Source of the DNA: a virus
Taxonomy: Duplodnaviria > Caudoviricetes
IMG/VR virus record: IMGVR_UViG_3300012667_000994
Coordinates: 1 to 52,379 of that record
Length of the DNA: 52,379 nucleotides
Direction: 5' to 3' (one strand)
Part shown: piece after piece, positions 10,184 through 51,736 of the stretch
Numbering within the stretch: the first letter of the stretch is position 1
Layout: every line of letters starts with the position of its first letter
The notes under the pieces: model-generated
The model's input: the letters and a program-made list of their open reading frames with translations, nothing else
The model's database searches: none
What the model was told of the DNA's origin: nothing
Translations under genes and position numbers: made by a program

Positions 10184-10184
10184 A

Positions 10185-10403: not shown

Positions 10404-10405
10404 GA

Positions 10406-11043: not shown

Positions 11044-11046
11044 TTT

Positions 11047-11499: not shown

Positions 11500-11500
11500 G

Positions 11501-11555: not shown

Positions 11556-11561
11556 ATTTTT

Positions 11562-13670: not shown

Positions 13671-13683
13671 TAGCCTTTTTTTT
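13653..13683. terminator. bidirectional intrinsic terminator
   Basis: AAAAGGCTAC...GTAGCCTTTT between convergent genes. Confidence 0.8.
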
Positions 13684-13709
13684 ATGTAAACAAATTTGTT
13701 TATATCAAT

Positions 13710-24897: not shown

Positions 24898-25293
24898 TTA
24901 AATTTTAACTAAAATCCCATCTTTACCACCTTTGTATTCATATCCTAATTTTAATAAATCATCATTCAACTTTTGAAATTGATTTTTAAAAAGTCCTTTA
25001 GCTGGGTACATTTTTTTTATTTTAGCTTCAATATCTCTAGCCGTATCTAATTTAGCTTGTTCTTCAGATGTTAAAACTTTTGTTGTAGGCGTTATAATCA
25101 TACCTGCTAATATTCCATCAGTAGCACCGCTTGTAGCACCAGTTGGGGTAGTTGTACTTGGAGTAGTTGCACTTGGCTGTGTAGCCGAAGCACCACCTAA
25201 TATTGCTTCTTGTTTTTTCTTATTTTTTAAGTACAAGTAAGCTAAACCGCCTACTACCGCTAAACCACCACCTATTAATAATACTTTTTTCAT
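24898..25293 (-). CDS. N-anchored Thr-rich membrane protein (tandem paralog B)
   Basis: Duplicate of 24401..24886. Confidence 0.8.
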   Translation of the reverse strand: MKKVLLIGGGLAVVGGLAYLYLKNKKKQEAILGGASATQPSATTPSTTTPTGATSGATDGILAGMIITPTTKVLTSEEQAKLDTARDIEAKIKKMYPAKGLFKNQFQKLNDDLLKLGYEYKGGKDGILVKI

Positions 25294-26432: not shown

Positions 26433-27221
26433 TTATCTTAATACCATATTTTTTTTCTCAAAGTCCATTACGAACTTCTCTATGATTTTCATTCTATTTA
26501 AGTTTTGTTGGCTGTCGCTTTCCTTGAATACTTCATAAAAAGCTTGCAACCCTTCAATTCTAGGATAACCTAATCCTAAATAGATTAATAATCCGTTTAT
26601 GTCGGCTTCACTTTCATTATCAATGTCATCATTAACGTAAAAGTGGCTAAATTCATGACACAATATAGCAAAACGCATAGGAACTGTATATTTGTCAAAA
26701 TATTTTTTTGCAACTTGTATTCTACCAGTTACCCTTGAAATTCTAGCTGGAGTAGTTAACTCCTTGCCAGTATTAGAGCTTTTAATAACTGGTAAATACT
26801 CAATAAGAAATTGACCATTGTCCGACTGATAAGTCTTATTAGCCGATAAATAAGGAGCATTATAACTAAACCTTTGAGCAAAATCGACAAAATTAGCAAC
26901 CACCATATTCTTAATATCAACAACATCTAATCTTTTTTCTAATGGAGTTTTATTAACTTCTAATATTTTAATGTTTTTTTCTTGAGCCTTTGGAACATTA
27001 CCTACTTTTTTATCATAAACGGAAATGATTACATTTTCTGAAGTCATAGGCAATCTTACATAAAATGTTTGTTGCCCTCTTACAGTTGCCCATCTATCCG
27101 TAAATATAATGTTTGGCTTATCTTCGGAAGCTACTTTAACAACCACTTCGCATGGTTGAGCAACAGCTACCTTAATAACCAAACACATTTCATCGTATCG
27201 AGTATTTAGTCTGTAATTCAT
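26433..27221 (-). CDS. zincin-like metallopeptidase
   Basis: AILCHEFSH followed by ESEAD. Confidence 0.7.
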   Translation of the reverse strand: MNYRLNTRYDEMCLVIKVAVAQPCEVVVKVASEDKPNIIFTDRWATVRGQQTFYVRLPMTSENVIISVYDKKVGNVPKAQEKNIKILEVNKTPLEKRLDVVDIKNMVVANFVDFAQRFSYNAPYLSANKTYQSDNGQFLIEYLPVIKSSNTGKELTTPARISRVTGRIQVAKKYFDKYTVPMRFAILCHEFSHFYVNDDIDNESEADINGLLIYLGLGYPRIEGLQAFYEVFKESDSQQNLNRMKIIEKFVMDFEKKNMVLR

Positions 27222-30022: not shown

Positions 30023-30724
30023 TTAAGCTTTTAATTTAATAGTTTGCCCATTAACAACATTTGGATTACCAAATTGTTTAGCAACAGCGTTTCCACCTAA
30101 TGCACGAGATAAGTTAATGTTATCTGCTGGGTAGAAGTATAATTTAACAGTTGCATTAGCAAGTACTTGACGAATGATAAGTTTTGTGAAACCATCAATT
30201 CTATAAGCATACTTCATTGCAATAATGTTAGTTTGTTGCTGATATGGGTCAATTGTAGGCACTAAAGTTTTTTGTGCCAAGTTACCATTTGCATCTTTAG
30301 TGTTAACCGAAATAGTTTCTAAAACTTGGTTAGCAGTTGCAGATTGGATATAAGTTAAACCAACTGAATATGGTTGATTCATAAATTGGTATAACATTTC
30401 ACGATAAGTGATGTCAGAAATTCCAGAAGAAATTGTAATTGAACCAATTACTAAATCTCCACCAGTTGTGAAACCAGCATTGTTGATGTATTGGTATGAA
30501 CCTAATACTTCAAAGTTAGACACAGCTGAACCAGATGTAGAAGTAATATCTACAATATAAGGTTGAGAAGTTGGAGCAGAAGCACCCATCATATCTCCAC
30601 CAGCGTTTCTGAAGAAATCATCTCCAGTAAATGACAAATCGTCATCGATAAAACCATCTGCATTTGCAAAACTTTCCATTGCATTTCTTTGAGCAGAAGC
30701 TAAATATTTTCTTACGTTAGACAT
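30023..30724 (-). CDS. major capsid protein candidate (beta-rich, possibly single jelly-roll)
   Basis: Soluble, beta-strand-rich, near the packaging ATPase, own promoter and terminator, has a paralog; fold is inferred. Confidence 0.6.
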   Translation of the reverse strand: MSNVRKYLASAQRNAMESFANADGFIDDDLSFTGDDFFRNAGGDMMGASAPTSQPYIVDITSTSGSAVSNFEVLGSYQYINNAGFTTGGDLVIGSITISSGISDITYREMLYQFMNQPYSVGLTYIQSATANQVLETISVNTKDANGNLAQKTLVPTIDPYQQQTNIIAMKYAYRIDGFTKLIIRQVLANATVKLYFYPADNINLSRALGGNAVAKQFGNPNVVNGQTIKLKA

Positions 30725-31258: not shown

Positions 31259-32077
31259 TTACAAATAGTATTTAAGGATTCTTTCTTTATGAAATTTAAC
31301 TGCATCGGCTGGAGTAAATTTTTTCTTTCCACCTATCAAATCCTTTTGTTGTAGCATAGGAGTAATTAGTTTTCTATAATTGTGAGAAATATATTCGTCA
31401 ATAATTGGCTCTAGCTTTTTTCTATCTGCACCTTTTATCTTTTCATCATCAATATCCACATATACAAATATCCTTTGATTGTCGTATTCATGGTATTCCT
31501 TATTAGTGTATAGTTCAACTATTTTGAACATTTCGTATTTATCCTCAAACTTGTTTCTATGTTTGTCAACGCTATCTGTATTTTTGTGAAAACGCATCCA
31601 ATTAAGGTTTTGCCAAATTTTTGGAGAAACCCTACCAATAGATTGAAAGTGCAAAATAATGTCAGTATCGGTATGTCTATTTGTTACAATAGCACCAACA
31701 AGGTCATTTGGTAAATAATCCGAAATATATCGGTTAATATCCTCAATAAGCAAAAGTCCATTTCTAAAGTCGAATAATATTTTGAACAATGTTTCTTGAA
31801 CATCATTAATAGTCATTCTTGTTCCGTTATCGTGGAAAGGTCTAATCCTTCTTATTTCAATTTTTGGGTGCATAGAAAACTTTTGCACATCGGATATTTT
31901 TAATGCTTTAATATCTTCATACTCATCGTTAACATCAAGTATAAGCACTCGTCTTGGAGCAACCCCTTTTGTTGGGTTGCCTTGAACATATTGTTGAAGC
32001 ATACGTTTAGTCGTATAGGTTTTACCACAACCTTTACGACCAACCGCTACTCCTAATTTTGGTTCTCTTTCTTCCAT
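31259..32077 (-). CDS. FtsK/HerA-superfamily (A32/P9-like) genome packaging ATPase
   Basis: Walker A GRKGCGKT, ILDVNDEY, Walker B LLLIED, Arg-finger NRH, ILHFQ, I.QN. Confidence 0.8.
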   Translation of the reverse strand: MEEREPKLGVAVGRKGCGKTYTTKRMLQQYVQGNPTKGVAPRRVLILDVNDEYEDIKALKISDVQKFSMHPKIEIRRIRPFHDNGTRMTINDVQETLFKILFDFRNGLLLIEDINRYISDYLPNDLVGAIVTNRHTDTDIILHFQSIGRVSPKIWQNLNWMRFHKNTDSVDKHRNKFEDKYEMFKIVELYTNKEYHEYDNQRIFVYVDIDDEKIKGADRKKLEPIIDEYISHNYRKLITPMLQQKDLIGGKKKFTPADAVKFHKERILKYYL

Positions 32078-32079
32078 GA

Positions 32080-33147
32080 TTATTTTCTAGGTTTTCTTGG
32101 AGAAGTTGCTCTCTTTGTTGTTGTTCTTTTGGTTTTACGAACTGGTTTTTCTAAATCGCTATCTTTTGCAATTTTTTCAATACCAGCTAATATATCTGGG
32201 TCGCCAAATGTAGGCATATTATCTGCTACTTTGCTTTCAGTTTTAAAACCTCCATTATCATTTAATATTGAATATACTCCGTTTTCAACTTCTTCTGGCT
32301 CAAAAAACTCAACTTGACTATCAAGGTTCGTTGCTGGTTTTTTTCTTTTTGGTGGAGCTACATATTCTTGCTCTACTGCTTCGCTTATATTATCGGTGTA
32401 TTCTGAACTTGAAGTAGTTTCTGCTTTTGGCTCGTATTTAACTTCTTGTTCTTGCGGTCTTGGTCTTGGTTGTTGTGTTTCACGAATAGCTAAAGTATTT
32501 TCTCTTAATGAATCTATAATACCATTAGCGGTTTTTCTCAACATGAAAGCTTGAACTCCTTTTGCACCAAAATCGGTTGCGAAATAATACATAAGCAATT
32601 GCTCATCGGTCATACCAATACCACGCTTTTTGAAAACTCTTTCTAAAGGTGGTTTTACTTTTTCTTTGAACTCATCGGAAACCGAAAACGCATCCTTAAT
32701 GCTATCGTTATATTCCCTTGCAAAATCTTTAACTCCTAAATTTCCGCCTTCAGTTGGAATCTCTATGTTTCCATCAATTTCGCCTTCAGCTATTAATCGG
32801 TCTAATTTACCTTCAGAAATTTCTGGTAGTTTACCTAATAATCCACAACCCTTTTCGTAAAGGTCAAGGGTCATTTCTGCCATCATTTTAGCACCCATTG
32901 TTTTTTCCTTACCATCTAATTCGCTATATGGTTGATTAAATGGTCTTTCTGGCTCGGCTTCTCCGCCTTCTTCCTCAAAGTCATTAAAACTAGGTGGTTG
33001 AAAAGTTGGTTCTTCTAAATCCCCTAACACTTGTGCATCTGCAATATGGTGCTGGGTATATGAACGTTGTTTTACTGGTGCGTCTAATGGAGAAAAATCA
33101 TCAATTATTTCTACCTCTGGTGCTGTATTAATTGTTTCTTGGCTCAT
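32080..33147 (-). CDS. acidic protein with basic tail upstream of the ATPase
   Basis: 355-aa ORF; possible packaging accessory or scaffold, by position only. Confidence 0.7.
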   Translation of the reverse strand: MSQETINTAPEVEIIDDFSPLDAPVKQRSYTQHHIADAQVLGDLEEPTFQPPSFNDFEEEGGEAEPERPFNQPYSELDGKEKTMGAKMMAEMTLDLYEKGCGLLGKLPEISEGKLDRLIAEGEIDGNIEIPTEGGNLGVKDFAREYNDSIKDAFSVSDEFKEKVKPPLERVFKKRGIGMTDEQLLMYYFATDFGAKGVQAFMLRKTANGIIDSLRENTLAIRETQQPRPRPQEQEVKYEPKAETTSSSEYTDNISEAVEQEYVAPPKRKKPATNLDSQVEFFEPEEVENGVYSILNDNGGFKTESKVADNMPTFGDPDILAGIEKIAKDSDLEKPVRKTKRTTTKRATSPRKPRK

Positions 33148-35103: not shown

Positions 35104-35433
35104 TTAAGTTGTTTCGTATTTTTTACCTAATGCTTTTTTAAGGTTATATTTAACCTCGTCAATATCGCCAGTCATATTTTCATATTCTTCGGCTGTTGGT
35201 TGTTCGTCTAATTTCTTTATAGCTTTTCTATAATAGAAAATTCCGTAAACCGACAAGGTAATTAGCAAGGCACTAATAACAATGTCTTTAATGTTCATTT
35301 TGCCACTTGTAATGCTTCCCATAGCTCCTCCTTCTTCATAGCTAGTTTCTACTGTTGGAGCAGGTGTACTTGCTACTACTGGTGCTGGTGCTGGCGTACT
35401 TACTTCTGCTGGCGGTGTTGTTTGTCCTTCCAT
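35104..35433 (-). CDS. membrane protein with Pro-rich N-terminus
   Basis: YEEGG motif before a TM helix. Confidence 0.7.
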   Translation of the reverse strand: MEGQTTPPAEVSTPAPAPVVASTPAPTVETSYEEGGAMGSITSGKMNIKDIVISALLITLSVYGIFYYRKAIKKLDEQPTAEEYENMTGDIDEVKYNLKKALGKKYETT

Positions 35434-38793: not shown

Positions 38794-39052
38794 GTTGTAG
38801 TTGAATTAATGTTTTTTGTTTTTCTATTATAGTGTTTCTACCTAGTTGCAAGCTTTCAAACTTATCCCAATGTAATTGTTCCTTTTCCTCTAGTGCTTCA
38901 ATTTCTTTTTCAAGTCTTTGCTTTTCTCTTTTCAATTCATTATTTTCTCCTATTCCATAAAATAGGAATAGTATAAATAATGCGATTAGTAAGCTACCTA
39001 ACCATTGTTGCTTTATGAAATTAACTATATGGAACATAACTTGTTTTTCCAC
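38702..39052 (-). CDS. inner-membrane coiled-coil protein (i-spanin-like)
   Basis: N-terminal TM plus coiled coil after the endolysin; start may be 39037. Confidence 0.55.
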   Translation of the reverse strand: MEKQVMFHIVNFIKQQWLGSLLIALFILFLFYGIGENNELKREKQRLEKEIEALEEKEQLHWDKFESLQLGRNTIIEKQKTLIQLQHDTIKIIDTIAFSKLQEFFSNRYSQKDSIE

Positions 39053-39488
39053 CTTGCTTAATTGCTTTCAAAACTTGCTTGCGTTGTTTTCCAGTTGATT
39101 CGTAAGAAACGTGAACCCAGTCTGGATTAGCATTTGTTCCAAACTCCCAAATTAATTGGTCAAAAGCCAAATGTTGCTTAATGAAGTCAAAAACTTGTTT
39201 ATTGGTTACACCACTTGCACTACCATCCATATCAATATCAATAGCTTCTCCGCTACAATGTTGAGAAGTTAAACTGCCACCAATTGCTTTATTTAGCTCT
39301 TTACTTCTATAACCACTACTTATGTGTATTGGTGCTTTAAAATGCTCTCTAATAGGCTCAAAAACCTTTTCTGCAAGCAATTTAAAATTTTCTAAATGTT
39401 CTGGAGTTGGCATATTACTAACACCCTTTCTTTTTGCTGTTTCGCTTCGTGTAACTTCGGCAAGCGATAAATGTTTACTCAATTGCAT
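39021..39488 (-). CDS. endolysin, peptidase M15A family
   Basis: ISSGYRS..LN.AIGG..TSQH..GEAIDI...WVHVSY. Confidence 0.92.
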   Translation of the reverse strand: MQLSKHLSLAEVTRSETAKRKGVSNMPTPEHLENFKLLAEKVFEPIREHFKAPIHISSGYRSKELNKAIGGSLTSQHCSGEAIDIDMDGSASGVTNKQVFDFIKQHLAFDQLIWEFGTNANPDWVHVSYESTGKQRKQVLKAIKQGGKTSYVPYS

Positions 39489-40395: not shown

Positions 40396-42408
40396 TTATT
40401 TATTTCTTACTTGTTCGTTAGCACGCTTTAAAGCACTTTGCCAGCTTTCTCCATCTTTACGAATTTGTTTTGCTAATTGCATAGCACCACCTCTTTTGGT
40501 TTTTCCACCACCAGACATTTTACTATCGTATTTTGCTTTTTGGCTACCAGCAATTTTATTACCTACTTCTTTTGCTTCGGCTTTGTCATAAGTCTTACCA
40601 TACTCTTTTTGGTATTTTGGTTTTACCTTTTTGCCTTCAAAATTTTTGGCTATTGCCGTTGCTTTTTGCTTGAAAGTGGTTTTGCCACCATCAGAGAAAG
40701 TGTTTCTTACATTTTTTATTATTTCTGTCAATCCAATAAGAGTTTTATCCCCAAAAGAAGTTTTTATTTTTCCGTTTTTTTCATTGGGTTCAAATACAGC
40801 TTTTGATATTTCTTCTGGATAATAATTCACATTGCTTATCATTGCAAATAAGCCTTCTTTTGTTTTATCTCCAAAAGAAGTTTTTATTTTTCCATTTTTT
40901 TGATTTGGAAAAAATATTGCACTTGTAACATCTGTAATAGAACCACCATCACCAAAAGAAATACCTTTTTGTTTTAAAGCACTACGATACATTTTAGCAA
41001 TATCCAATAACATAGGGTAGCCATCAAACTCTATGTTCGATTTATTTACTACTTCTTTTTTTGTTTTACCAGAATAAGGTTCGTAATACTCAAAATACAA
41101 TCTACCATTTTTGTAAATTATTGGTTTATATTGCATAGGTTCTTGCCAAGTACCGCTTTTGTCAACTACCATTATTGGGTCGCCATCTTTATCAATTGCC
41201 TTTTCAATAAGCGAATTAACTTCATCTACTTTTTTTTGAATTTTAGAATCTAATTTACCTCCTTTTAAAAATTTAATTTCTAACTGACCACCATCGGCAT
41301 ATTCATATCCCTCTATTTGGTTTAATTCAACTCCAATAGGTCTTAATCCATAAGGTTCATTGTCTAATCCATAATCAAAAGTATATCCTACCCCTTCAAC
41401 TTCTGCTAAAAACTTTTTGCTATCTTCATAATCATAGTCATCTTCTTCAAACTTTTCCATATAAGTACTTACAATTTCAGAAAGTTCTGCTGGTTGATTT
41501 TCATAATCTTCAAACAAATCTTTATAAATCATACCTCCATCATCATATTTAGAAGTGTGAATTGGTTTTGCACCTTTTTTAATCCAATATCCGTTTGCAA
41601 CCTTTACATCTTTACCATCTCTTAATTGTACTTTAACTACATTTCTTTTTGGAACGTAAAAAGCCAATTTTTCAAGTTTTCCACCATCTTCTAACTTGTA
41701 AGCACCATTATATACATCTGACACTTTATAAGTTAATTTTTGGTCGCCTTTCTTAATTGTAATAGTATTTAATTGTTTTCTTTGGACATAGTTTTTAGTT
41801 ACGCCACCAGTTGCATAATTATCTTTATATTTTTCAAATTTATATTTGTCAATTTTTTTATAAATATCAACTACTCTTTGATGCAATTTTGGGTTTTTTC
41901 TTTTTAGAAATTCAACTTCTTTTTTGAAGTTAGCTGTTTCTGAATAATCATAACCATCGAATAAACCATACAAATAGTTGGTTAATACTTTTGGCGTGTC
42001 GCTTTCAGATAAAACATCTAAAATTTCTTCTCTGGTTTCTGAATCCATTTGTGCTTGTCGGTCAAATCTTCTAATTTCTCCACCTCCAGCAAAAAACAAA
42101 CTATTTCTACGATTATAGTTTACTTCATGTTGTTCAGATTTATTAACGTGCCTATGGTCATTTGTCCAGTTTCTTCCAGTAGAATATTCTCTATTACCTA
42201 CTTTACGAACTCCACCACCTTTTGCAAAAGGTAGTGGCGGTTCAGCACCTCTATAACCATTTGCTAAATTAACATAAACAATATCTCCAGTTTTAGTTTT
42301 CACTTTTTGAACTCCACCAGACATTGTCTTTAAGATTTGGTCGCCCTCTTTTAAACCATGATTATCAAGTGAGCCACCTTCTGCATAAAAATTATATTTT
42401 TTATTCAT
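40396..42408 (-). CDS. modular protein 3 with about 11 [FYLM]xxGG motifs
   Basis: YAEGG, FAKGG, FAGGG, YATGG, LEDGG, YDDGG, YADGG, FLKGG, FGDGG, FSDGG, MSGGG. Confidence 0.8.
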   Translation of the reverse strand: MNKKYNFYAEGGSLDNHGLKEGDQILKTMSGGVQKVKTKTGDIVYVNLANGYRGAEPPLPFAKGGGVRKVGNREYSTGRNWTNDHRHVNKSEQHEVNYNRRNSLFFAGGGEIRRFDRQAQMDSETREEILDVLSESDTPKVLTNYLYGLFDGYDYSETANFKKEVEFLKRKNPKLHQRVVDIYKKIDKYKFEKYKDNYATGGVTKNYVQRKQLNTITIKKGDQKLTYKVSDVYNGAYKLEDGGKLEKLAFYVPKRNVVKVQLRDGKDVKVANGYWIKKGAKPIHTSKYDDGGMIYKDLFEDYENQPAELSEIVSTYMEKFEEDDYDYEDSKKFLAEVEGVGYTFDYGLDNEPYGLRPIGVELNQIEGYEYADGGQLEIKFLKGGKLDSKIQKKVDEVNSLIEKAIDKDGDPIMVVDKSGTWQEPMQYKPIIYKNGRLYFEYYEPYSGKTKKEVVNKSNIEFDGYPMLLDIAKMYRSALKQKGISFGDGGSITDVTSAIFFPNQKNGKIKTSFGDKTKEGLFAMISNVNYYPEEISKAVFEPNEKNGKIKTSFGDKTLIGLTEIIKNVRNTFSDGGKTTFKQKATAIAKNFEGKKVKPKYQKEYGKTYDKAEAKEVGNKIAGSQKAKYDSKMSGGGKTKRGGAMQLAKQIRKDGESWQSALKRANEQVRNK

Positions 42409-42424
42409 ATTTTTTTAAATATAA

Positions 42425-42457
42425 AGGTTAAGGAGCATTTAACATACTCCCTAACCT
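42425..42457 (-). terminator. intergenic hairpin (terminator or processing site)
   Basis: AGGTTA.GGAG...CTCC.TAACCT imperfect inverted repeat. Confidence 0.5.
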
Positions 42458-42465
42458 AATTAATG

Positions 42466-45126
42466 TTATCCTACAATATTTATTCCTCCACCAGATATGT
42501 AATATTCAAATGAAGTTTCTGCACCTACACAAGTGTATAATGGAACATAAAATTTTCTGTATCTATTACCAGCATCATAAAACCCTCTTAATTCAAAATA
42601 TTCAAAAGTTTCAAGTGCTTCTTCTTCTCTATATCCAAAAGGATTATTAGCTCTTTCTTTACCAGTTGGAGATTTCCAAAGGTTTCTTAAATAATCAATT
42701 CCTTTTTTATTTTGGTCTGAAGTTAATTGTGGAGAATTATCCCAAATAAAATCAATTGCTTCTTGGGTAAATTCATCCACTTTATCATTGTTCATTCTCA
42801 ATTTAATCAAATTGATTTCTTTTTCAGTAATAGTATTAGTTTCCATCATATTTTTAAATGGAGAAACCCCACCACCTTTAGCGTAAATGCTACCACCATC
42901 AGCAAAACTTGTACCTCTAATTATAACTTTTCCATCGTAAGTTTCTACTGAAGGCATCCCAAATTCATTTGCTCCTTGTGTCAATTTATCTTCAACATCT
43001 TGGTCAAGACTATGGTCAAAAAAACCAGCTCCATGTCCTCCTTGTGTGTACCAAATATCCATTCCAATTGTTTCTAAATCTAATCCACTTTCTTTAATAG
43101 CTTCTTTATTTTTTGAATAATATTTAGATAGCATTTTTTTAGCACTAGCTTCGCTTTCTTTATCAAAATCATAAATTGAATAATTATTTTCAAGTGGTTC
43201 ATCTGTATCATAATCCATTTCAGCAAAAAGAATTGCAGAAGCATAACCTCTCCATAATTCATCTAAATCTGAACTGCTTACATCACCCCCATCATCAAAA
43301 CTTTTTTTACGAGTATAGTTTACTTCTCTACTATCTGCTTTGTCAATGTGTTTATGCTCGTTTGTCCAGTTTCTACCAGTTGGATATTCTCTACCTCCTA
43401 CCATACGAACTCCACCACCTTTAGCATAAATACCTTGTGCTGTACCTTCTCCTAAATAGTAATTTACAAAATGTTGTTCAGTACCAGCAGGCAAGCCAGT
43501 ATTACCACCCATTTCATAAACTCCAGCTTGGAAGTCGCCAAAGTTAGGGTCGGTTAAATAACCATCTTCGGCATATCTTTTACCTTTAAAAATTTCAGCG
43601 TACAATTTAACTTCTTCTAAATTATAAGATTGTGCTAAAATTTCATTAGAAGTATCATCATACAATCTAAAATAATCTAATCCATCTGGATTTGTAAACA
43701 TTTCTAAAGAATAGTGTCTATTGTTTGGACTTTGACCTTTAAACTTGTCTAAAACAATTCCACGACCTACTCCACCACCAGTTGCAAAATCTTTAGTAAA
43801 TTCTAATTCATTTGTTTCTGGATTAAAAATTCTTTTAGTTACACCCATTGATTTTCCATTATAATCTTTTCTTGGTGCATATATTTCATATTTACCATTT
43901 TCTAATTTTCTAACTTTAAAATCAGACATTTTTTGATTAAAAAACTTCATGGTTTTCGCATCAAAGAAATATGGAGAAGTTTCAGATGTTCTTCTTTTTA
44001 TTTCACTTATAGTTATTTGACCACCACCAGCAAACATCTCTCCACTTGACATAGCACCAGTTTCGCCAACAAGTCCAGTATAGCTAATTCCTAAATCTCT
44101 CGCTAATGGAGTTTCTGCTGTACCAATAATTGTTCCGCCAGTTTCTAAATCTCTTTTTAAACCATCGCTAACAGTTTTATTTAATGTTACGCCATATTCT
44201 CTTAATTGCCAAAGTGGACTTGTATCTTTCATTCCTTTTGGTAATTTATAGCTATCTAATAATATTTCCTTTGCAGTTTGAATGTATGATTCGTCATAAC
44301 CATAAGTCATTCTGCTTTTTCCTACATATTTATCATTTACAAAAACTTCTGCTGTATGATAAGTATTACCATTTACTCTATCAAACCATCTTCTTCCAAC
44401 AACAAATACAACATCTCCTTTTTTAAGTGTTGGTTTTTTCATTTTTCCAACTCCACCACCAGTTTCTAAATAAGCACTTTTAAATCCACCTACATCAACT
44501 CTATTGGCTCTATTTTCGTAATATACTTTACCACCATCAGATACTCCATATTGGTTTTTCCAACCTTTTGTTGAAACTCTCTTACCTCTTGGCATAGCAC
44601 GTCTTTGAGCATCTTTGCTTAAATTAGAAGTTCCAGCAAGTTTTTTATACTCTTTGTTTCTACGAACCATTGCCAATAACTTATCGGTTTCAGTTCTTGC
44701 TTTCGCTTTAGTTTCAGTAGTTTGCGAAGTCATCATTTTTCTTGCACGAAGCTTGGCATCATCCCAACTTTCGTCAGCTTTACGAATTTCTTTTGCTAAT
44801 GAAAAAACAGTTTTTTTCTTTGTTGTAGGTTTTTCCTCAACTTTTGGTTTTTTGGTTCTACTTGTTGTAGTTCTTTTTGCTCTAGTTCTAGCTGGTGCTT
44901 TAGCTTTAGCTTGCTCCTCTTTTTTGTCTGCTACCTCAAGTGCTTTTTCAACTTTTTTCTCTATTTCTTTAACTTCATCTTTTACTTCCGAAGCCGTAAT
45001 AGTTTCATCGGTTTTAATTTCCGATTCTAATTTTTGAATTTCAACACGAATTTTATCTTTCATGTTATCTGGAATAAACTTGTTATCCAATGATTTTTTT
45101 AATTTTTCTAATTTTTCTGTATTCAT
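42466..45126 (-). CDS. modular protein 2 with about 9-10 [FYLM]xxGG motifs
   Basis: LETGG x2, FAGGG, FATGG, YEMGG, YAKGG x2, FDDGG, FADGG; basic N-terminal region. Confidence 0.8.
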   Translation of the reverse strand: MNTEKLEKLKKSLDNKFIPDNMKDKIRVEIQKLESEIKTDETITASEVKDEVKEIEKKVEKALEVADKKEEQAKAKAPARTRAKRTTTSRTKKPKVEEKPTTKKKTVFSLAKEIRKADESWDDAKLRARKMMTSQTTETKAKARTETDKLLAMVRRNKEYKKLAGTSNLSKDAQRRAMPRGKRVSTKGWKNQYGVSDGGKVYYENRANRVDVGGFKSAYLETGGGVGKMKKPTLKKGDVVFVVGRRWFDRVNGNTYHTAEVFVNDKYVGKSRMTYGYDESYIQTAKEILLDSYKLPKGMKDTSPLWQLREYGVTLNKTVSDGLKRDLETGGTIIGTAETPLARDLGISYTGLVGETGAMSSGEMFAGGGQITISEIKRRTSETSPYFFDAKTMKFFNQKMSDFKVRKLENGKYEIYAPRKDYNGKSMGVTKRIFNPETNELEFTKDFATGGGVGRGIVLDKFKGQSPNNRHYSLEMFTNPDGLDYFRLYDDTSNEILAQSYNLEEVKLYAEIFKGKRYAEDGYLTDPNFGDFQAGVYEMGGNTGLPAGTEQHFVNYYLGEGTAQGIYAKGGGVRMVGGREYPTGRNWTNEHKHIDKADSREVNYTRKKSFDDGGDVSSSDLDELWRGYASAILFAEMDYDTDEPLENNYSIYDFDKESEASAKKMLSKYYSKNKEAIKESGLDLETIGMDIWYTQGGHGAGFFDHSLDQDVEDKLTQGANEFGMPSVETYDGKVIIRGTSFADGGSIYAKGGGVSPFKNMMETNTITEKEINLIKLRMNNDKVDEFTQEAIDFIWDNSPQLTSDQNKKGIDYLRNLWKSPTGKERANNPFGYREEEALETFEYFELRGFYDAGNRYRKFYVPLYTCVGAETSFEYYISGGGINIVG

Positions 45127-45129
45127 GGT

Positions 45130-48100
45130 TTAGTTATTTTCGTTTAACATTTTTATAATCTCTAACGCTTCTTTAATGTCTTTTTTGTCTTTGCCTTTTG
45201 CTGTTTGCATTAACATTTCAAGTGTTTCTATTGCTTCTTGTAGTTCATTGGATTCTAAAACTTCTTTCATATCTTCCAATTCAACAATTTGCTCTAAATC
45301 TTTTTTGCTTAACTTTTGTTGCTTTGTTTTTTCAACTGGCAAAGTCTTTTTGTAGTCTATTGCATCTATTGGAAAAACATAAGCTCTGTTTGGCTCTGTA
45401 AAATAACATTCAACTTCCGTATCGGTTATTGTTTCAAGCATAGTGTCAAAAAATTCTTTTCTAAAAGAAAAATATTGATTTTCTTTAAAGTTATCTTTTG
45501 ATGGCATAAGTAAAAACACAGATTGGTCTAAACTTAAATTGTTTTCTACTTCTTTATAATTTAAGTCAATTTTGCACAACTCTATGGTTTCAATTAAATC
45601 AGATTGAACATTATAACTTTTACTTTCTGAAACTTTAACGTTTAAAGTATCTCCTATATTGAAAAAATCAAAAAGAATATCTTTTTGCCCTTTGTATTTA
45701 GATACCAAATTGGTCATTTCTTGACTTTTTAAGCACTTATTCATAACCACATGGTCAAACACTATCGCTTTGGTGCTTTCTCTCGGTATAACAGCATCGT
45801 AATTTGGATATTTACCATCTATTACTCTGGCAATGTACTCTAAATTATCTGCTTCGATAAAAATGTTTGTCAAGTTACATTTGAAGTGCAAAGAACCATC
45901 TGCCAACTTAATAAAGTCTTTTAAATATTTAGTTGGTAATATGTATTCTAATTCTCTATCGTCTTTATCAAAATCACAGAAATCCGTAATATTAATTTTG
46001 CAAAGCGTATGAGCATTAGTAGTTACTAAAAACATTTCGTTTTGAGCCGTTTTTTTAATACAAATTCCAGACATTACTGGTCTTAAATCATCTTTACCTA
46101 CCGACAATAATAATTTATCCAAATAGAACTCGAAAACTTCACTAAAAGTTACAAACTCAAAAGCAGTTTGTCTTTTTTCTTGCCTATGCGTTTCGTATTC
46201 ATCTTTATTGAAAACCCTTTCACTTGGAAAATCCTCAATAGGTTGCATGGTAATATTTGGTGCTTTATTTACAATTTCGTAAATACCATTTGGCATATTA
46301 ACATCTTTAACCACTAAAGATATTTCCAAATCGGTTGCAGTCATTTTACCATCTTCTACTTTTGCATAGTCTAATATTGCAAGTCTATTACGTTTACTTG
46401 TTATTTTACTTAATAATGCTAAATAATCATCATCTACTGAAAGGTTGTTTTCGTATTGCATTTTAAATTCAGCAACCGAACCATCTGCATTATGAATTTC
46501 GCTATCGTTGAAATCAAAATATGCTTTTAAACTTCTATTGTAATCTGGGTCGCTAGTTCCATATCCAGTAATTGTTCCAAAAGTAGAAGTTAACATAATA
46601 GGCATAATTAATAATATTTCATCACTTCCTACTTCATAATCTTTTGTTGGACTTAAAACCATTGCTCTATTTGGTTGTGTAATGAAAGCATATAATTTTT
46701 CATGACCTAATTTTAAAGATGCAGTCAATACCTCTGACAAAAGAGAACCATTAAATCCTATTCTATCATTATCTCCAAATTTGAATGAAATACCTCTTGT
46801 TATTTTGTTAGCATAATTCATTGCAGTTTTAGTGTATTGCAATAATTTATAAACATCAACTTCATAAGGTTTAATCACATTATATTTTGGTATAATTGCT
46901 TCATAATTTGGATAATTACCATCAATTAAAATAGGTTGGTCTGCTTTTATTTTTTTTACTCGGTTTATATCATAAATACCTTCGTATTTTTCGTTTGGAT
47001 AAGGCAATGTTATTAACTTATGAAAATCAGTAGCTGTAATACCATTTTTGTCAAAATTAATACCCATTCCAACTGGTTTTAAATCATCTTTACCTAAAAA
47101 TGGAGAAATAATACTATCTAATCCTTTGTCCAATGGATTATTGGTAAAAGGTACTTTTTTTACTTTGCTTATGTTTCGGTAATTTGTAGGCACTTTATCC
47201 CACTCAAAAACTTCGGCACTTAAAGTAGCACCACCATCTTTATACATTGTATCAGCAGAATCGCCTTCCATATTAGCATCGTAAGGTTTTAAACTTCCAC
47301 CATCGCCAAACAAACCAGTTTCAGCACCAAATTGACCATCAACGCCTACATCCATTAAGTCGTTATAGTTGTTCAAATCCCTTGAAGTATGGTCGCCTTT
47401 TTTAGATTCATCAACTAAATCTAATTGACCGCCACCTTCTAAACCTACTTTATCTAAAACAGTATAGTAGTTTGGATTTTCTACCAAATGGTCTTTTGCT
47501 ATTTTTTCTTGCATATTTTTGTCGGTTGTATGTTCGCTTTCTACCTCAATTCCTTTTCTTAATTGACTTTTAATATGAGAAATAGTTACGTTGTGCATTT
47601 CTGCAATATCTTCAATTGATTTTTCTTTTGATAAACCACCACCATAATTCATTTTTAGTTCATTTGAATCTACTTTTGATGCTTTACCACCCATTACAGC
47701 ACTATAAACTCTTGCCATTGCCCATTGCTCTTTTGACTTAACATTTGGTCTTACGCTTTCTGGGTTTGTTTTATATGCACCTATACCTTTATTGTAAATT
47801 TTTTGCAAACCTTTTATGGAAACTCCAGTATCTTTTGAAATTTCTTCTAAATCATGCGAAGTACCTTTAGGATAATTGAATTTTAGATTATATTTATCTT
47901 TGTAAGACACATATCCACCATCTTTAAAAAATCCACCATAGTCATATTCATCCTCACAACTACAATCATTCATGCTTTGCATAATTTCATAATCGGTCAT
48001 AGTTTTACCACCATAATTGTACGAACTACCATTATAATAAATTTCGCCACCATTCTCTAATGAAACACCACCACCTTTTTCGTTGATTTTAGACAATATT

Positions 48101-48375
48101 TCTCTATTGGTTAACATTTCCCCTTCAAATTCTCTTTTGGTTTGGTCTGCAACGGCTGGTGCTGTAATAATTACTTCTCCACCTTGAACCTCAATTGGTT
48201 GCCCAGTAGATTTATTAATACCTTTTATTCCACCCTCTTTGTGTAATTTGCCAACAAAATAACCTCCTTGAGTTCCTTTGTCGTGAATTATTGTTTGACC
48301 TTGTCTTTTACCTACTAAAACTCCCCCTGCTGGAGATTTTTTTGCTTGTTCTTCGGTTATTGTATCTTTTTTCAT
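45130..48375 (-). CDS. modular protein 1: GxxHxxGG/GGE module, DUF5824-like, DUF5661-like and beta-clamp-like domains
   Basis: GKLHKEGGI..EVQGGEVII; QWAMARVYS; GIEVESEHT..IAKDHL.ENPNYY; GKDDL[KR]PV..G...IDG.YPNY.A.IP twice. Confidence 0.75.
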   Translation of the reverse strand: MKKDTITEEQAKKSPAGGVLVGKRQGQTIIHDKGTQGGYFVGKLHKEGGIKGINKSTGQPIEVQGGEVIITAPAVADQTKREFEGEMLTNREILSKINEKGGGVSLENGGEIYYNGSSYNYGGKTMTDYEIMQSMNDCSCEDEYDYGGFFKDGGYVSYKDKYNLKFNYPKGTSHDLEEISKDTGVSIKGLQKIYNKGIGAYKTNPESVRPNVKSKEQWAMARVYSAVMGGKASKVDSNELKMNYGGGLSKEKSIEDIAEMHNVTISHIKSQLRKGIEVESEHTTDKNMQEKIAKDHLVENPNYYTVLDKVGLEGGGQLDLVDESKKGDHTSRDLNNYNDLMDVGVDGQFGAETGLFGDGGSLKPYDANMEGDSADTMYKDGGATLSAEVFEWDKVPTNYRNISKVKKVPFTNNPLDKGLDSIISPFLGKDDLKPVGMGINFDKNGITATDFHKLITLPYPNEKYEGIYDINRVKKIKADQPILIDGNYPNYEAIIPKYNVIKPYEVDVYKLLQYTKTAMNYANKITRGISFKFGDNDRIGFNGSLLSEVLTASLKLGHEKLYAFITQPNRAMVLSPTKDYEVGSDEILLIMPIMLTSTFGTITGYGTSDPDYNRSLKAYFDFNDSEIHNADGSVAEFKMQYENNLSVDDDYLALLSKITSKRNRLAILDYAKVEDGKMTATDLEISLVVKDVNMPNGIYEIVNKAPNITMQPIEDFPSERVFNKDEYETHRQEKRQTAFEFVTFSEVFEFYLDKLLLSVGKDDLRPVMSGICIKKTAQNEMFLVTTNAHTLCKINITDFCDFDKDDRELEYILPTKYLKDFIKLADGSLHFKCNLTNIFIEADNLEYIARVIDGKYPNYDAVIPRESTKAIVFDHVVMNKCLKSQEMTNLVSKYKGQKDILFDFFNIGDTLNVKVSESKSYNVQSDLIETIELCKIDLNYKEVENNLSLDQSVFLLMPSKDNFKENQYFSFRKEFFDTMLETITDTEVECYFTEPNRAYVFPIDAIDYKKTLPVEKTKQQKLSKKDLEQIVELEDMKEVLESNELQEAIETLEMLMQTAKGKDKKDIKEALEIIKMLNENN

Positions 48376-48698: not shown

Positions 48699-49067
48699 TT
48701 ATTTTTTTCTTTTCATTGGTCTTGTTTTAAAAAAGCCACTTTGTCTTGCGTGTTTCATGTTTTCTTCATTAGTACACCATTCTAAATTTTCAACTCTATT
48801 GTCGGTTTTAATTCCGTTTTTGTGATTTACTTGAGGTTTACTAAATGGATTATCAATAAAAGCCAAAGCAACTAATCTGTGTTCCGTAAAACAATTATTT
48901 TTTCCATCTTTTGACAAAACTCTTTTTACATAACCATATCTATCAATACTTCTGCCAATTAACCTTTCCTCAAAAACCCTTTCGCTAATTAAACGCTTAA
49001 CATTTCCTAAATTTGACACTTGGTATAATCCCTCAAAACCAGCTATGTCTTTCCAAATTTCTTCCAT
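48699..49067 (-). CDS. NUMOD4-HNH homing endonuclease
   Basis: EIWKDI.GFEGLYQVSNLG; HRLVA.AF...VNHKNG.KTDNRVENLEW.T..EN. Confidence 0.93.
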   Translation of the reverse strand: MEEIWKDIAGFEGLYQVSNLGNVKRLISERVFEERLIGRSIDRYGYVKRVLSKDGKNNCFTEHRLVALAFIDNPFSKPQVNHKNGIKTDNRVENLEWCTNEENMKHARQSGFFKTRPMKRKK

Positions 49068-50458: not shown

Positions 50459-51736
50459 TTAAATTAATTTTAAAATTATTTGTTCAAACTTTTTAGCAAT
50501 ATCTTTCCACTTCCACTTTTTAACGTGGTTGTATGCGTTTTGAATAATAGTGTTGACTTGTTCTTGAACTTCTACTTCTTCATTTTGAATATTGTAAACA
50601 ATTCCACAAACTTGAGCCACTTCCTCTGGGTTTGAAATAAACCTAATTTTCTCAAAGTCATTTACGAAAACGGCTCTTTGCATGAACTTAAATAAGAAAG
50701 CATTATTACCATTATCGGTAATTTCTTGTATAGAAGTATGTCTTGGTGCGACAACTAGCTTTTTAGTCGCCATTGCCTCCACAATACTTAATCCCCAACC
50801 CTCTGCCGTAGTAGTTGTAATGAAGCAATCAAAAGTATTGTAGATTTTATTTAATTCGGATTCGGAAATACCATTATTTTCATTAAAATCTTTTGGGAAA
50901 AATATATCCGTTCCAACATCCAAACCTAGTCTTTCAGATAATCTAAAACAATCAATACCCATTCTGTCTATTGGGTTACAATGAATGTATAAAACAGCAT
51001 TGGCTTGAGTAGTGTGTTTAAACATAGCAAATCCCATCATAAGAGTTGCTAAATCCTTTCTAGCGGAATTACGATTAACGCTACCAAACACAAAAACATC
51101 ACTTTTTCCGAAAAGTTGTTCTTTGGTTTTACTTAATTCAAATTTATTGTCGATAGGGTAAAACACTTCGGTATCTATTCCATGAGGAATAACTTTTATT
51201 TTTTTCCAGATAGATTCTGAAACAAGTGGTTTTAAAGTTGCTTTACCATACTCGGTGTAGGTAATTACTTCATCAAATAAATTTAGCACCCCACAATCGC
51301 TTGGTCTTGGCTCACTATCTATTGGAGTATATAAAATGTACTTGGTTTTCTTTTTGTTGGCTTTTACACGTTCTTTTTTTACGTTTGCCAAATGCTCGGT
51401 CATGGAATTAAGCACCTCAATATCATTTAGTGCAAAAAATACATCATATTTTTCGGAATATAGAGTTTTAAGCAATTCTAGTCTTGCATAGTTATCTTTG
51501 TTCTCATCTGCTACTAAACATGGGATTACAAATACGTTTGGTTGGTAGTTGTATGGTTTTTCCGATAAGTCATTAATAGCTAATACTACAATGTTGAAGT
51601 TTTTATTTTTGCTCCAGTTATCAATTAGTTGTTTCGATACGTTACCGAAACCAGTTGTGCAATTAAAATCCCCATAAAAAAGGATATTTGCAACCTTGTC
51701 TGCTTTTTTAGTTTTTTGGCTGTGTAATACTTTCAT
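50459..51736 (-). CDS. GT4-family glycosyltransferase
   Basis: TGFGNVS, IPHGIDT, NRNSARK, EGWGLSIVEAMA. Confidence 0.9.
   Translation of the reverse strand: MKVLHSQKTKKADKVANILFYGDFNCTTGFGNVSKQLIDNWSKNKNFNIVVLAINDLSEKPYNYQPNVFVIPCLVADENKDNYARLELLKTLYSEKYDVFFALNDIEVLNSMTEHLANVKKERVKANKKKTKYILYTPIDSEPRPSDCGVLNLFDEVITYTEYGKATLKPLVSESIWKKIKVIPHGIDTEVFYPIDNKFELSKTKEQLFGKSDVFVFGSVNRNSARKDLATLMMGFAMFKHTTQANAVLYIHCNPIDRMGIDCFRLSERLGLDVGTDIFFPKDFNENNGISESELNKIYNTFDCFITTTTAEGWGLSIVEAMATKKLVVAPRHTSIQEITDNGNNAFLFKFMQRAVFVNDFEKIRFISNPEEVAQVCGIVYNIQNEEVEVQEQVNTIIQNAYNHVKKWKWKDIAKKFEQIILKLI

What the first reader, a model, noticed from the sequence alone, without database searches (positions are those of the whole stretch)
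40396..48375. Three consecutive large proteins punctuated by ~30 [FYLM]xxGG motifs: candidate processed polyproteins
Seen: an aromatic/hydrophobic-x-x-Gly-Gly motif recurs about 11, 9-10 and 8 times in the 670, 886 and 1081-aa ORFs. It falls at the borders of apparently unrelated small modules and is absent from the long clamp-like region. Known: adenovirus protease, the ASFV polyprotein protease and SUMO/ubiquitin proteases cleave after di-glycine, releasing core proteins in viruses of the jelly-roll lineage. Inference: these are virion core or cargo polyproteins cut after GG into many small DNA-binding or host-takeover proteins. Alternatively the motif is a repeated packaging/docking tag.
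Basis: partly seen in the sequence, partly recalled or inferred. Interest (0 to 1): 0.85.

Follow-up and report, generated by a model that had tools for sequence, protein, structure and literature searches.

The report
Motif-punctuated modular phage cargo proteins
Three neighbouring large genes of an uncultured bacterial virus encode strings of small protein modules joined by one short, repeated hydrophobic-Ala-x-Gly-Gly motif, most likely a cutting (or docking) signal used to deliver many small host-takeover proteins at once.

Summary
The three minus-strand ORFs (670, 886 and 1081 aa) carry 12, 12 and 8 [FYLM]xxGG motifs. No shuffle of 2000 reaches the [FY]xxGG counts, and 24 of the 31 [FY]xxGG in the 83-ORF genome lie in these three proteins. 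The clamp-like residues 401-1081 of the third protein have no GG at all.

In 1154 unique contexts from 120 homologs the motif is a 7-residue word, [YFL]-A-[DK]-G-G-x-[VIL]. It sits in low-confidence linkers between folded modules (13 of 14 GG runs in the AF2 model of the 886-aa protein). Homology breakpoints fall at it: 79-89% lie within 10 aa, against 27-58% expected. Modules match whole standalone phage protein families, and ArdA occurs in 12 of 52 homologs.

These are polyvalent, polyprotein-like cargo proteins of an uncultured virus lineage. Complete relatives are 70-85 kb with inverted terminal repeats, a HerA-type ATPase is present, and no tailed-phage hallmark was found. The host is probably Bacteroidota.

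Cleavage is not shown. No adenain/Ulp1, C39 or M23 protease was found in the genomes searched. A conserved 262-aa HExxH protein is a weak candidate protease. The motif also recurs in a small membrane protein in every ortholog examined.

Best reading: a processing site (about 0.45). Rivals are a docking or "sticker" tag and a passive hinge.

The parts
47176..48375 (-). N-terminal 400 aa of the 1081-aa protein: small modules (including DUF5824 at residues 159-235 and DUF5661 at 255-309) separated by GG motifs. There are 14 GG runs, about 8 of them canonical.
   Evidence: Homology breakpoints: 49 of 55 lie within 10 aa of a GG run, against 58% expected.
45130..47175 (-). Motif-free, tandem beta-sliding-clamp-like unit with a C-terminal coiled coil (residues 401-1081). 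In relatives it is either a standalone 640-700 aa gene or the anchor of much larger fusion proteins.
   Evidence: Pfam DNA_pol3_beta_2 at 4.6e-11. PDB beta clamp 8dt6 at 1.8e-17 with the single sequence and 2.3e-37 with a profile, which matches both halves of the unit. 2137 homologs at E<=1e-3, fused forms up to 2495 aa. 0 GG runs.
42466..45126 (-). 886-aa polyvalent protein: a conserved N-terminal ~200 aa followed by a variable array of modules. 14 GG runs, 12 [FYLM]..GG.
   Evidence: The AF2 model places 13 of 14 GG runs in pLDDT<50 linkers. 440 of 558 breakpoints lie within 10 aa of a GG run, against 27% expected.
40396..42408 (-). 670-aa polyvalent protein: 13 GG runs, 12 [FYLM]..GG. One motif lies at residues 7-12 and tandem motifs lie at 369-384.
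   Evidence: 266 of 319 breakpoints lie within 10 aa of a GG run, against 35% expected.
35104..35433 (-). 109-aa small membrane protein. It has a variable Pro/Ala/Thr-rich leader, then a conserved motif (YEEGG-AM, nt 35326-35340), then a TM helix. This is an instance of the motif outside the three large proteins.
   Evidence: The hydrophobic/Thr-x-x-GG-x-hydrophobic pattern is kept in all 11 orthologous sequences read: window, G002, eight IMG/VR loci (one from the same record as L001, some identical to each other) and G003. The flanks vary. G003 has two copies.
26433..27221 (-). 262-aa conserved protein with HEFSH (nt 26643-26657) and a downstream E-x-E-A-D. It is a candidate zincin-like metallopeptidase and a speculative processing enzyme.
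   Evidence: HEFSH and E-x-E-A-D are invariant in 4 of 4 orthologs read. Sub-threshold Pfam SprT-like matches at E 0.11-0.23 in 3 of 3 C-terminal domains, and Peptidase_M48 at E 0.18 in 1 of 3. Atlas feature leads to metallopeptidase clusters at 0.85 and 0.81. Against.

Best explanation
The three genes encode polyvalent, polyprotein-like proteins. Each is a string of small, independently folding modules (anti-restriction and other host-takeover or DNA-associated functions, plus a beta-clamp-like anchor). The modules are joined by a conserved 7-residue linear motif, hydrophobic(Y/F/L/M)-Ala-x-Gly-Gly-x-hydrophobic, which lies in flexible linkers. The genes sit in the late or structural gene block of an uncultured virus, probably non-tailed and with inverted terminal repeats, whose host is probably a member of the Bacteroidota. 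The proteins are probably loaded into the virion and delivered with the DNA. The motif is most likely the recognition site of a virus-encoded protease that cuts the strings, and trims a small membrane protein, into many small proteins, in the particle or after entry. A conserved 262-aa HExxH protein (26433-27221) is a candidate for that protease. Shown: motif enrichment, linker position, module shuffling at the motif, conservation across hundreds of homologs, and identities of some modules. Inferred: virion loading, cleavage, the identity of the protease and the exact scissile bond.
For: Enrichment: 0 of 2000 shuffles reach the observed counts, and 24 of 31 genome-wide [FY]..GG lie in these ORFs. 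Family-wide conservation: 1110 [FY]..GG in 113,166 aa of 120 proteins, about 1 per 100 aa. The 1154 unique contexts show information only at -3 to +3: Y32/F29/L12%, A43%, D22/K18%, G, G, G34/S13%, V27/I16/L12%. That is the size of a protease or SLiM site. Codons encoding the motif vary, so selection acts on the protein. Linker position: 13 of 14 GG runs lie in pLDDT<50 segments between confident modules. Modules match nearly whole standalone families: phrog_6246 positions 10-107 of 113, phrog_1915 4-129 of 141, DUF5661 2-61 of 65. This suggests the units work as separate proteins elsewhere. Shuffling at the motif: 440 of 558, 266 of 319 and 49 of 55 breakpoints lie within 10 aa of GG, against 27%, 35% and 58% expected. 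Cargo character: ArdA occurs in 12 of 52 homologs. DUF5824 sits N-terminal to the capsid protein in a Roseobacter phage, and DUF5661 sits in a Vibrio phage DUF2213 head protein. A second substrate class fits a maturation protease: the motif is kept at the leader/body junction of a small membrane protein in all 11 orthologous sequences read. The lineage-specific -3 preference (M in G003, Y/F in the window and G001) is shared by the polyvalent proteins and this membrane protein in 3 of 4 genomes. Some distant clamp fusions end with a last motif followed by a conserved short tail (..F.PI.TPL), which looks like a propeptide. Candidate protease: see parts. Published precedent: polyvalent proteins are predicted to be processed by peptidases (PMC5512222, passages read), and ASFV and adenovirus cut precursors at GG-containing sites (PMC10308890 and PMC4246237, passages read).
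Against: There is no direct evidence of cleavage. No known GG-specific protease family was found: PF00770, PF02902, PF03412 and PF01551 all gave 0 matches. MPTase-PolyVal (PF18818) is absent from the window. The HExxH candidate is weak. It is below every curated threshold, has no PDB, NCBIfam or PHROG support, and the HExxH pattern count in the window is at chance (2 observed, 1.62 expected). Zincins are not known for Gly-Gly specificity (recalled). Tandem motifs 7-10 aa apart would release tiny peptides. Distant clamp-fusion relatives of 1400-1900 aa have no motif at all, so the architecture does not require it. Low pLDDT at the motifs may partly reflect patchy alignment depth over shuffled modules. 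Virion loading is inferred only from gene position and from fusions seen in other phages.
Confidence: 0.45

Rival explanations
1. The motif is not cut. It is a multivalent docking or 'sticker' peptide. Each copy binds a virion component (capsid interior, internal membrane protein, or the clamp-like ring), or copies bind each other. Cargo strings and the small membrane protein would then co-assemble or condense and be packaged and delivered together.
For: The motif lies in disordered linkers and has two hydrophobic anchors flanking GG. Valency is high, with tandem copies 7-10 aa apart, which raises avidity but makes little sense for cutting. The motif occurs in a membrane protein next to its TM helix. 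A motif lies near the N-terminus of the 670-aa protein and 6 residues from the C-terminus of the 886-aa protein and 24 of 120 homologs. The motif-free clamp-like unit is always adjacent or fused. No convincing protease was found.
Against: No receptor is identified. In 96 of 120 homologs the last motif lies 13 or more residues from the C-terminus, so many terminal modules carry no motif of their own. The roughly one-motif-per-module rule and the match of modules to standalone proteins elsewhere are explained more simply by release. An apparent C-terminal 'tag' on the M15 peptidase proved not to be conserved.
Confidence: 0.25
2. The motif is a passive inter-module hinge or cassette boundary. It would be a flexible GG turn capped by hydrophobic residues that insulates the folding of neighbouring modules or eases threading through a narrow delivery channel, and it would persist because modules are exchanged as cassettes that carry their boundaries.
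For: Breakpoints of homology coincide with the motif. GGT is somewhat favoured in GG runs (60 of 94 Gly codons, against 66 of 138 elsewhere), which could help recombination. Distant relatives manage without the motif.
Against: Passive linkers rarely keep an aromatic residue, an Ala and a hydrophobic residue at fixed positions over 1154 contexts. The other codons of the motif vary. The motif is conserved in a single-domain membrane protein where nothing is shuffled. The lineage-specific shift from Y/F to M at -3 suggests a co-evolving partner.
Confidence: 0.2
3. The sites are cut after GG by an adenain/Ulp1-like (clan CE) cysteine protease, homologous to the maturation system of adenoviruses, ASFV and other jelly-roll-lineage viruses.
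For: The motif resembles (M/I/L)xGG-X and GG-X sites (PMC4246237 and PMC10308890, passages read). The virus has a HerA/FtsK-type ATPase, and relatives have inverted terminal repeats.
Against: PF00770 and PF02902 gave 0 matches at E<=1-10 in the window and five relatives, four of them rated 100% complete. The hydrophobic residue sits at P5, not P4. The capsid fold is undetermined, and PF09018 is absent.
Confidence: 0.05

Closest known systems
Polyvalent proteins of phages and conjugative elements (Iyer, Burroughs, Anand, de Souza, Aravind 2017, PMC5512222; abstract and passages read)
   Same: Many unrelated effector or DNA-binding domains in one polypeptide of a mobile element. Anti-restriction content (ArdA in homologs). 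Predicted packaging with the DNA and predicted proteolytic release.
   Different: There is no MuF, portal or terminase context, and no MPTase-PolyVal domain. Modules are unusually small (about 30-130 aa). They are separated by one conserved linear motif, which that paper's main text does not mention: 0 hits for 'glycine', 'diglycine', 'GG motif', 'linker' and 'clamp'. Its supplementary files were not seen. A beta-clamp-like anchor is used.
ASFV polyproteins pp220/pp62 cut at Gly-Gly-X by pS273R, and adenovirus precursors cut by AVP at (M/I/L)xGG-X (PMC10308890 and PMC4246237; passages read)
   Same: Virion-associated precursors with repeated GG-containing sites preceded by a hydrophobic residue. 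Termini of other virion proteins are also trimmed.
   Different: No clan-CE protease was found. The hydrophobic residue is one position further from GG. There are far more sites (about 10 per protein). The products would be small accessory modules, not core-shell proteins. The host is prokaryotic.
T4 internal proteins and Alt with a cleavable capsid-targeting sequence, and the phage P1 Dar/DdrB system (partly from PMC5512222 passages; T4 CTS details recalled)
   Same: Anti-restriction or host-modifying proteins are loaded into the capsid, processed by a head protease and injected with the DNA.
   Different: Those are single proteins with one N-terminal signal in tailed phages. Here there are arrays of modules with an internal repeated motif, in a virus without tailed-phage hallmarks.
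Encapsulin cargo-loading peptides and FG-type sticker motifs (recalled, not tested)
   Same: Short Gly-containing hydrophobic peptides in disordered regions that dock cargo to a shell or drive multivalent assembly.
   Different: No shell-binding partner was identified here. The consensus sequence is different. The copy number per protein is much higher.

Membership tests
Polyvalent proteins (Iyer et al. 2017) | Several (2-15) unrelated domains in one polypeptide encoded by a phage or conjugative element | tested here: met
   The record is a virus record. Distinct Pfam/PHROG modules lie in each ORF. Folded modules are separated by linkers. Modules are shuffled among 120 homologs.
Polyvalent proteins (Iyer et al. 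2017) | Conflict or early-function domains such as anti-restriction proteins | tested here: inconclusive
   ArdA (PF07275) occurs in 12 of 52 homologs scanned but not in the window's own three proteins. Most modules have unknown function.
Polyvalent proteins (Iyer et al. 2017) | Associated processing peptidase (MPTase-PolyVal or similar) and/or MuF-portal-terminase packaging context | tested here: not met
   PF18818 gave 0 matches in the window. No peptidase Pfam family occurs in 52 homologs. No portal, terminase or MuF family appears among the Pfam/PHROG results (one search printed only 25 of 51 families).
Clan-CE (adenain / Ulp1 / pS273R) maturation system | Virus-encoded clan-CE cysteine protease | tested here: not met
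   PF00770 and PF02902 gave 0 matches in the window and in 5 related records.
Clan-CE (adenain / Ulp1 / pS273R) maturation system | Precursor proteins actually cut after Gly-Gly | not testable with these tools
   This needs proteomics or in-vitro cleavage.
Double-glycine leader / C39 peptidase systems | C39 peptidase domain | tested here: not met
   PF03412 gave 0 matches in 5 records including the window.
Bacterial beta sliding clamp (DnaN) | Three clamp domains in a ~370-aa protein that dimerises into a ring | tested here: inconclusive
   The sequence match to clamp domains is significant. However, the unit is 681 aa, both halves match clamp domains, and there is an added coiled coil. No structure was predicted for it.
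Zincin metallopeptidases (for the 262-aa candidate) | HExxH plus a downstream third ligand, and a significant profile match | tested here: inconclusive
   HEFSH and E-x-E-A-D are invariant in 4 of 4 orthologs. The SprT-like and M48 matches reach only about 12 bits, against cut-offs of 25.6 and 20.3. There were no PDB or NCBIfam hits.

The most novel reading that the evidence does not exclude
This would be a widespread, uncultured, non-tailed virus lineage of Bacteroidota with inverted terminal repeats, complete genomes of 70-85 kb and an undetermined capsid fold. It would mature its virion cargo by polyprotein processing. Dozens of small host-takeover proteins would be made as three strings, tethered to the genome through a single-chain clamp-like ring, and released at hydrophobic-Ala-x-Gly-Gly sites by a previously unrecognised HExxH protease. 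That would be a prokaryotic, convergent counterpart of adenovirus and ASFV maturation.
Probability: 0.2. Interest if true: 0.85.

Novelty: new variant of a known kind. Interest (0 to 1): 0.65.

Why it matters
Phage polyvalent proteins are known, but how their domains are loaded and released is mostly conjecture. This family offers a simple, sequence-readable punctuation mark, at about one per module across more than a thousand instances. That makes the question directly testable: terminomics on particles, or a two-module reporter with the candidate protease. If the motif is a cleavage site, it defines module boundaries for dozens of unknown small phage proteins, which are candidate anti-defence factors. 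It would also reveal polyprotein maturation in a prokaryotic virus that lacks tailed-phage hallmarks. If the motif is a docking tag, it is a compact cargo-loading signal. Either way the viral lineage itself is essentially undescribed: 2009 homologs of its most conserved protein, and no cultured relative in 50,697 phage records.

Tried and rejected
Cultured relatives. Megablast of the region and tblastn of the 670-aa protein, the 355-aa protein, the ATPase and the 262-aa protein against 50,697 phage records gave no match. The 886-aa protein hit only one module in a Bacteroides phage.

The 355-aa ORF beside the ATPase as capsid protein. Rejected: its family consensus is helical and charged with a basic tail.

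The 233-aa candidate capsid protein. AF2 gave a mean pLDDT of 44.7, and Foldseek against the PDB gave 0 matches at E<=0.001. The capsid lineage is therefore undetermined. HK97 capsid PF05065 and PRD1 P3 PF09018 both gave 0 matches in 5 records, and protein-primed polymerase PF03175 gave 0 in 5.

The M15 peptidase C-terminal '..KQGG..' as a motif or tag. Rejected: in 78 orthologs the GG is often NG, AG or GK, and position -3 is V, I or K.

A purely DNA-level recombination signal. Unlikely, because the codons of the motif vary.

Complex prediction of the clamp-like unit (alignment A5) with residues 352-397 of the 670-aa protein gave no verdict (score 0.26, mark 0.32). This is no evidence either way.

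Literature. Searches for six pentapeptide forms of the motif, for phage polyprotein / Gly-Gly / maturation protease, for sliding clamp / polyvalent protein, and for large jelly-roll or tailless ITR viruses of Bacteroidetes found no description of this motif or lineage. Only listings were seen, except for the three papers cited by passages. The supplements of PMC5512222 were not seen and may list related proteins.

The listing of cluster members gave no names or accessions. The atlas search of the 355-aa protein was uninformative.

The Pfam tally over the 64 other ORFs printed only 25 of 51 families, so a weak protease hit could be hidden.

Not done, because the machines failed: a phyletic co-occurrence test of the HExxH gene with motif-rich proteins across IMG/VR, and a statistical test of co-variation at position -3.
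Full report
OBSERVATION. The window is a complete IMG/VR virus record of 52,379 bp, linear, with a CheckV completeness estimate of about 75% and about 30% G+C. Three adjacent minus-strand ORFs lie at 45130-48375 (1081 aa), 42466-45126 (886 aa) and 40396-42408 (670 aa). They hold 14, 14 and 13 runs of two or more glycines. [FYLM]..GG occurs 8, 12 and 12 times, and [FY]..GG occurs 5, 9 and 10 times. Shuffles of each protein give means of 0.53, 0.81 and 0.72 for [FY]..GG, and 0 of 2000 shuffles reach the observed count in any protein. Of the 31 [FY]..GG in my 83 called ORFs, 24 are in these three proteins, and four of the remaining seven are in a collagen-like fibre that is 21% glycine. Residues 401-1081 of the largest protein contain 26 Gly but no GG.

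THE MOTIF. A search with the 886-aa protein found 299 proteins at E<=0.001, of which the best 120 (including the query) were analysed. Together they carry 1766 GG runs and 1110 [FY]..GG in 113,166 residues, about one per 100 aa. In 1154 unique 21-residue contexts, information is confined to seven positions. Position -3 is Y 32%, F 29%, L 12%. Position -2 is A 43%. Position -1 is D 22%, K 18%. Then come G and G. The next position is G 34%, S 13%. The one after that is V 27%, I 16%, L 12%, M 9%. In a more distant lineage (records G003 and G005) the same word is used with M or F at -3, as in MADGG, MAKGG and FAKGG. The codons that encode the word vary (TAT/TAC/TTT/TTC; GCA/GCT/GCC; GGT/GGA/GGC), so selection acts on the peptide. 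GGT is only mildly favoured: 60 of 94 Gly codons in GG runs, against 66 of 138 elsewhere.

WHERE IT SITS. An AlphaFold2 model of the 886-aa protein was built with a 52-row alignment and has a mean pLDDT of 57. It shows confident modules at about 231-322, 404-513, 656-740 and 755-870, separated by low-confidence stretches. Thirteen of the 14 GG runs fall in segments with pLDDT<50, which cover 389 of 886 residues. The fourteenth GG run is 8 residues from the C-terminus. One caveat is that patchy alignment depth over shuffled modules may also lower pLDDT. The modules correspond to nearly full-length standalone families: phrog_6246 positions 10-107 of 113, phrog_1915 4-129 of 141, DUF5661 2-61 of 65, and DUF5824 42-118 of 127. 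Local-alignment breakpoints between the window proteins and their homologs coincide with the motif. For the 886-aa protein, 440 of 558 breakpoints lie within 10 aa of a GG run (79% against 27% expected), and on the subject side the figures are 81% against 30%. For the 670-aa protein, 266 of 319 do so (83% against 35%). For residues 1-400 of the 1081-aa protein, 49 of 55 do so (89% against 58%). So the motif marks the junctions at which modules are exchanged.

WHAT THE PROTEINS ARE. Pfam recognises little. In the 1081-aa protein it finds DUF5824, DUF5661 and a beta-clamp central domain, and in the 886-aa protein a weak DUF7447. Among 52 homologs of the 886-aa protein, 12 carry the anti-restriction domain ArdA and none carries a peptidase family. 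In other phages the DUF5824 module lies near the N-terminus of an 874-aa ORF annotated 'major capsid protein' that directly follows the portal gene (Roseobacter phage CRP-701). The DUF5661 module lies inside a DUF2213 head-gene-cluster protein (Vibrio phage VPs20). Neither protein shows the motif. These fusions, together with the position of the three genes in the long same-strand block that also holds the lytic enzymes, membrane proteins and packaging ATPase, suggest virion cargo. This is inference. The architecture fits the 'polyvalent proteins' of Iyer et al. 2017 (PMC5512222; abstract and passages read), which are predicted to be packaged and proteolytically released. That paper's main text does not mention glycine motifs, linkers or clamps, and its supplements were not seen.

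THE CLAMP-LIKE UNIT. Residues 401-1081 match beta sliding clamps: PDB 8dt6 at 1.8e-17 with the single sequence and 2.3e-37 with a 33-row profile. The C-terminal half matches clamp domains II-III, and the N-terminal half matches a further clamp domain. In the representative library the unit has 2137 homologs at E<=0.001. Among the best 150, many are standalone proteins of about 640-700 aa with essentially no motif. Others are fusions of up to 2495 aa whose extensions carry the motif in close relatives but not in some distant ones, for example proteins of 1411, 1572 and 1928 aa with 0 motifs. In relatives the clamp-like gene lies immediately upstream of the motif-rich genes. I read it as a DNA-tethering anchor for the cargo. 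This is inference.

THE VIRUS. A collinear relative (G002, 72,545 bp) has a perfect 123-bp inverted terminal repeat, and two of five related records are classed as ITR-bearing. The window encodes a 272-aa HerA/FtsK-type ATPase (Pfam DUF87 1.1e-5), a PAP2 membrane protein, many small transmembrane proteins and several wall-lytic enzymes. No portal, terminase, HK97 capsid (PF05065) or PRD1 P3 (PF09018) family was detected. The most conserved protein is a beta-rich 233-aa ORF (30023-30724), 86% identical to its G002 ortholog and with 2009 homologs. Its fold could not be established. One relative lies in a 132-kb contig of a Sediminibacterium MAG, which hints at a Bacteroidota host. The claim that this is a jelly-roll-lineage virus is therefore plausible but unproven.

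CUTTING SITE OR NOT. Several points favour cutting:
- The motif has the size and make-up of a protease site.
- There is about one motif per module.
- The modules are standalone proteins elsewhere.
- The motif also occurs in a different class of protein. A 109-aa membrane protein (35104-35433) keeps the pattern (Y/M/T)-x-x-G-G-x-(M/V) at the junction between a variable Pro/Ala/Thr-rich leader and its conserved body in all 11 orthologous sequences read. The G003 form has two copies.
- The preference at -3 in this protein follows that of the polyvalent proteins in 3 of 4 genomes. This is anecdotal.
- Some distant clamp fusions end with a last motif followed by a conserved short tail..F.PI.TPL, in about 16 of 150.

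Trimming of several kinds of virion precursor at one consensus is what maturation proteases do. AVP cleaves sequences such as M-R-G-G and IVGL|G, and ASFV pS273R cleaves after Gly-Gly-X (passages in PMC4246237 and PMC10308890).

Several points count against cutting. No cleavage is shown. No adenain (PF00770), Ulp1 (PF02902), C39 (PF03412) or M23 (PF01551) family is present in the window or in the related records searched, and MPTase-PolyVal is absent from the window.

The only candidate enzyme is a 262-aa core protein (26433-27221). Its most conserved block holds HEFSH and a downstream E-x-E-A-D, invariant in 4 of 4 orthologs including the distant G003. Its C-terminal domain gives sub-threshold matches to SprT-like (E 0.11-0.23 in 3 of 3) and Peptidase_M48 (E 0.18 in 1 of 3). 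The atlas lists metallopeptidase clusters as leads, at 0.85 and 0.81. It has no PDB, NCBIfam or PHROG support, and the HExxH pattern alone is at chance in the window. I rate it about 0.6 as a zincin and about 0.25-0.3 as the enzyme acting on the motif.

RIVALS. A multivalent docking or sticker motif explains the tandem copies, the terminal copies and the membrane-protein copy equally well. A passive hinge or cassette boundary explains the shuffling, but not the fixed hydrophobic and Ala positions, nor the conservation in a protein that is not shuffled.

NOVELTY. Polyvalent proteins and GG-directed viral maturation are each known. I did not find in print a conserved linear motif punctuating phage polyvalent proteins, coupled to a clamp-like anchor, in a virus lineage with inverted terminal repeats and no tailed-phage hallmarks. 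I therefore file it as a new variant of a known kind, with a robust observation and an open mechanism.

The phyletic co-occurrence and co-variation tests were therefore not run, and counts from translations after one search were read by eye.

Noticed in passing
whole window; relatives G001-G005 (L001, L007, L008, L012-L015): The virus belongs to an abundant uncultured lineage. Complete relatives are 70-85 kb, and G002 has a perfect 123-bp inverted terminal repeat. The window has a HerA/FtsK-type ATPase (31259-32077), a PAP2 protein and many small membrane proteins. No portal, terminase, HK97 capsid, PRD1 P3 or protein-primed polymerase family was found, and there is no relative among 50,697 phage records. 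It may be a large membrane-containing tailless virus, loosely sphaerolipovirus- or tectivirus-like, but the capsid fold is undetermined.
   Followed up: partly
window 30023-30724 (-): This 233-aa beta-rich protein is the most conserved long ORF (86% identical to its G002 ortholog; 2009 homologs, the top 120 all at least 84% identical). It is the candidate major capsid protein. A conserved 'DDFF.NAGG' follows an N-terminal helix. AF2 gave pLDDT 44.7 and there was no Foldseek match.
   Followed up: partly
window 32080-33147 (-): This 355-aa protein lies next to the ATPase and has 492 homologs. It is helical and acidic with a Pro-rich centre and a strongly basic C-terminal tail. It does not look like a capsid protein and may be a terminal, genome-associated or packaging accessory protein.
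   Followed up: partly
window 45130-47175 (-); P0361-P0510: The 681-aa clamp-like unit appears to contain clamp domains in both halves, so it may be a single-chain ring. It forms a large family of 2137 hits, which are either standalone or fused to extensions of up to about 1800 aa.
   Followed up: partly
P0361-P0510: About 16 of 150 clamp-family proteins end with a last GG motif followed by a conserved C-terminal tail '..[FY].PI.TPL(N)'. This may be a propeptide, a docking peptide or a cofactor-like peptide.
   Followed up: no
L104 (Sediminibacterium sp. MAG contig, 132 kb): A related virus segment (ATPase, 362-aa protein, 233-aa protein, HExxH protein) lies in the middle of a 132-kb contig of a Bacteroidota MAG. 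This could be a provirus, an episome binned with its host, or a chimeric assembly. It hints at the host.
   Followed up: no
window 14915-18643 (-): A 1242-aa collagen-like fibre protein with 262 Gly. G002 has three such genes in tandem.
   Followed up: no
window 24401-24886 and 24898-25293 (-): Two adjacent paralogous small membrane proteins have nearly identical first 45 residues, differing at one position. This points to a recent tandem duplication.
   Followed up: no
window 4364-4990 (-), 48699-49067 (-): Homing-endonuclease-like genes (GIY-YIG-type PHROG hits; NUMOD4/HNH_3). G002 carries three copies related to the second. In the window this gene sits just upstream of the three large genes.
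   Followed up: no
window 9314-14528 and 50459-51736: A cluster of glycan-modifying genes (Pfam tally, not mapped to individual ORFs): glycosyltransferases GT1, GT4 and GT9, sulfotransferase, APS-kinase-like and cytidylyltransferase-like. It suggests glycosylated or sulfated virion or host surface structures.
   Followed up: no
L001 2194-2763 and 2765-3391: In relative G001, two paralogous small proteins upstream of the clamp fusion both end with '..YNKGG' followed by an identical 15-residue tail. Their N-termini recall ADP-ribosyltransferase-type polyvalent domains. That resemblance is recalled, not tested.
   Followed up: no
window 39021-39488 (-): An M15 (VanY-like) wall peptidase. Its C-terminal '..KQGGKTSYVPYS' looked like a motif-bearing tail, but in 78 orthologs the GG is often NG, AG or GK, so it is a chance match.
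   Followed up: yes
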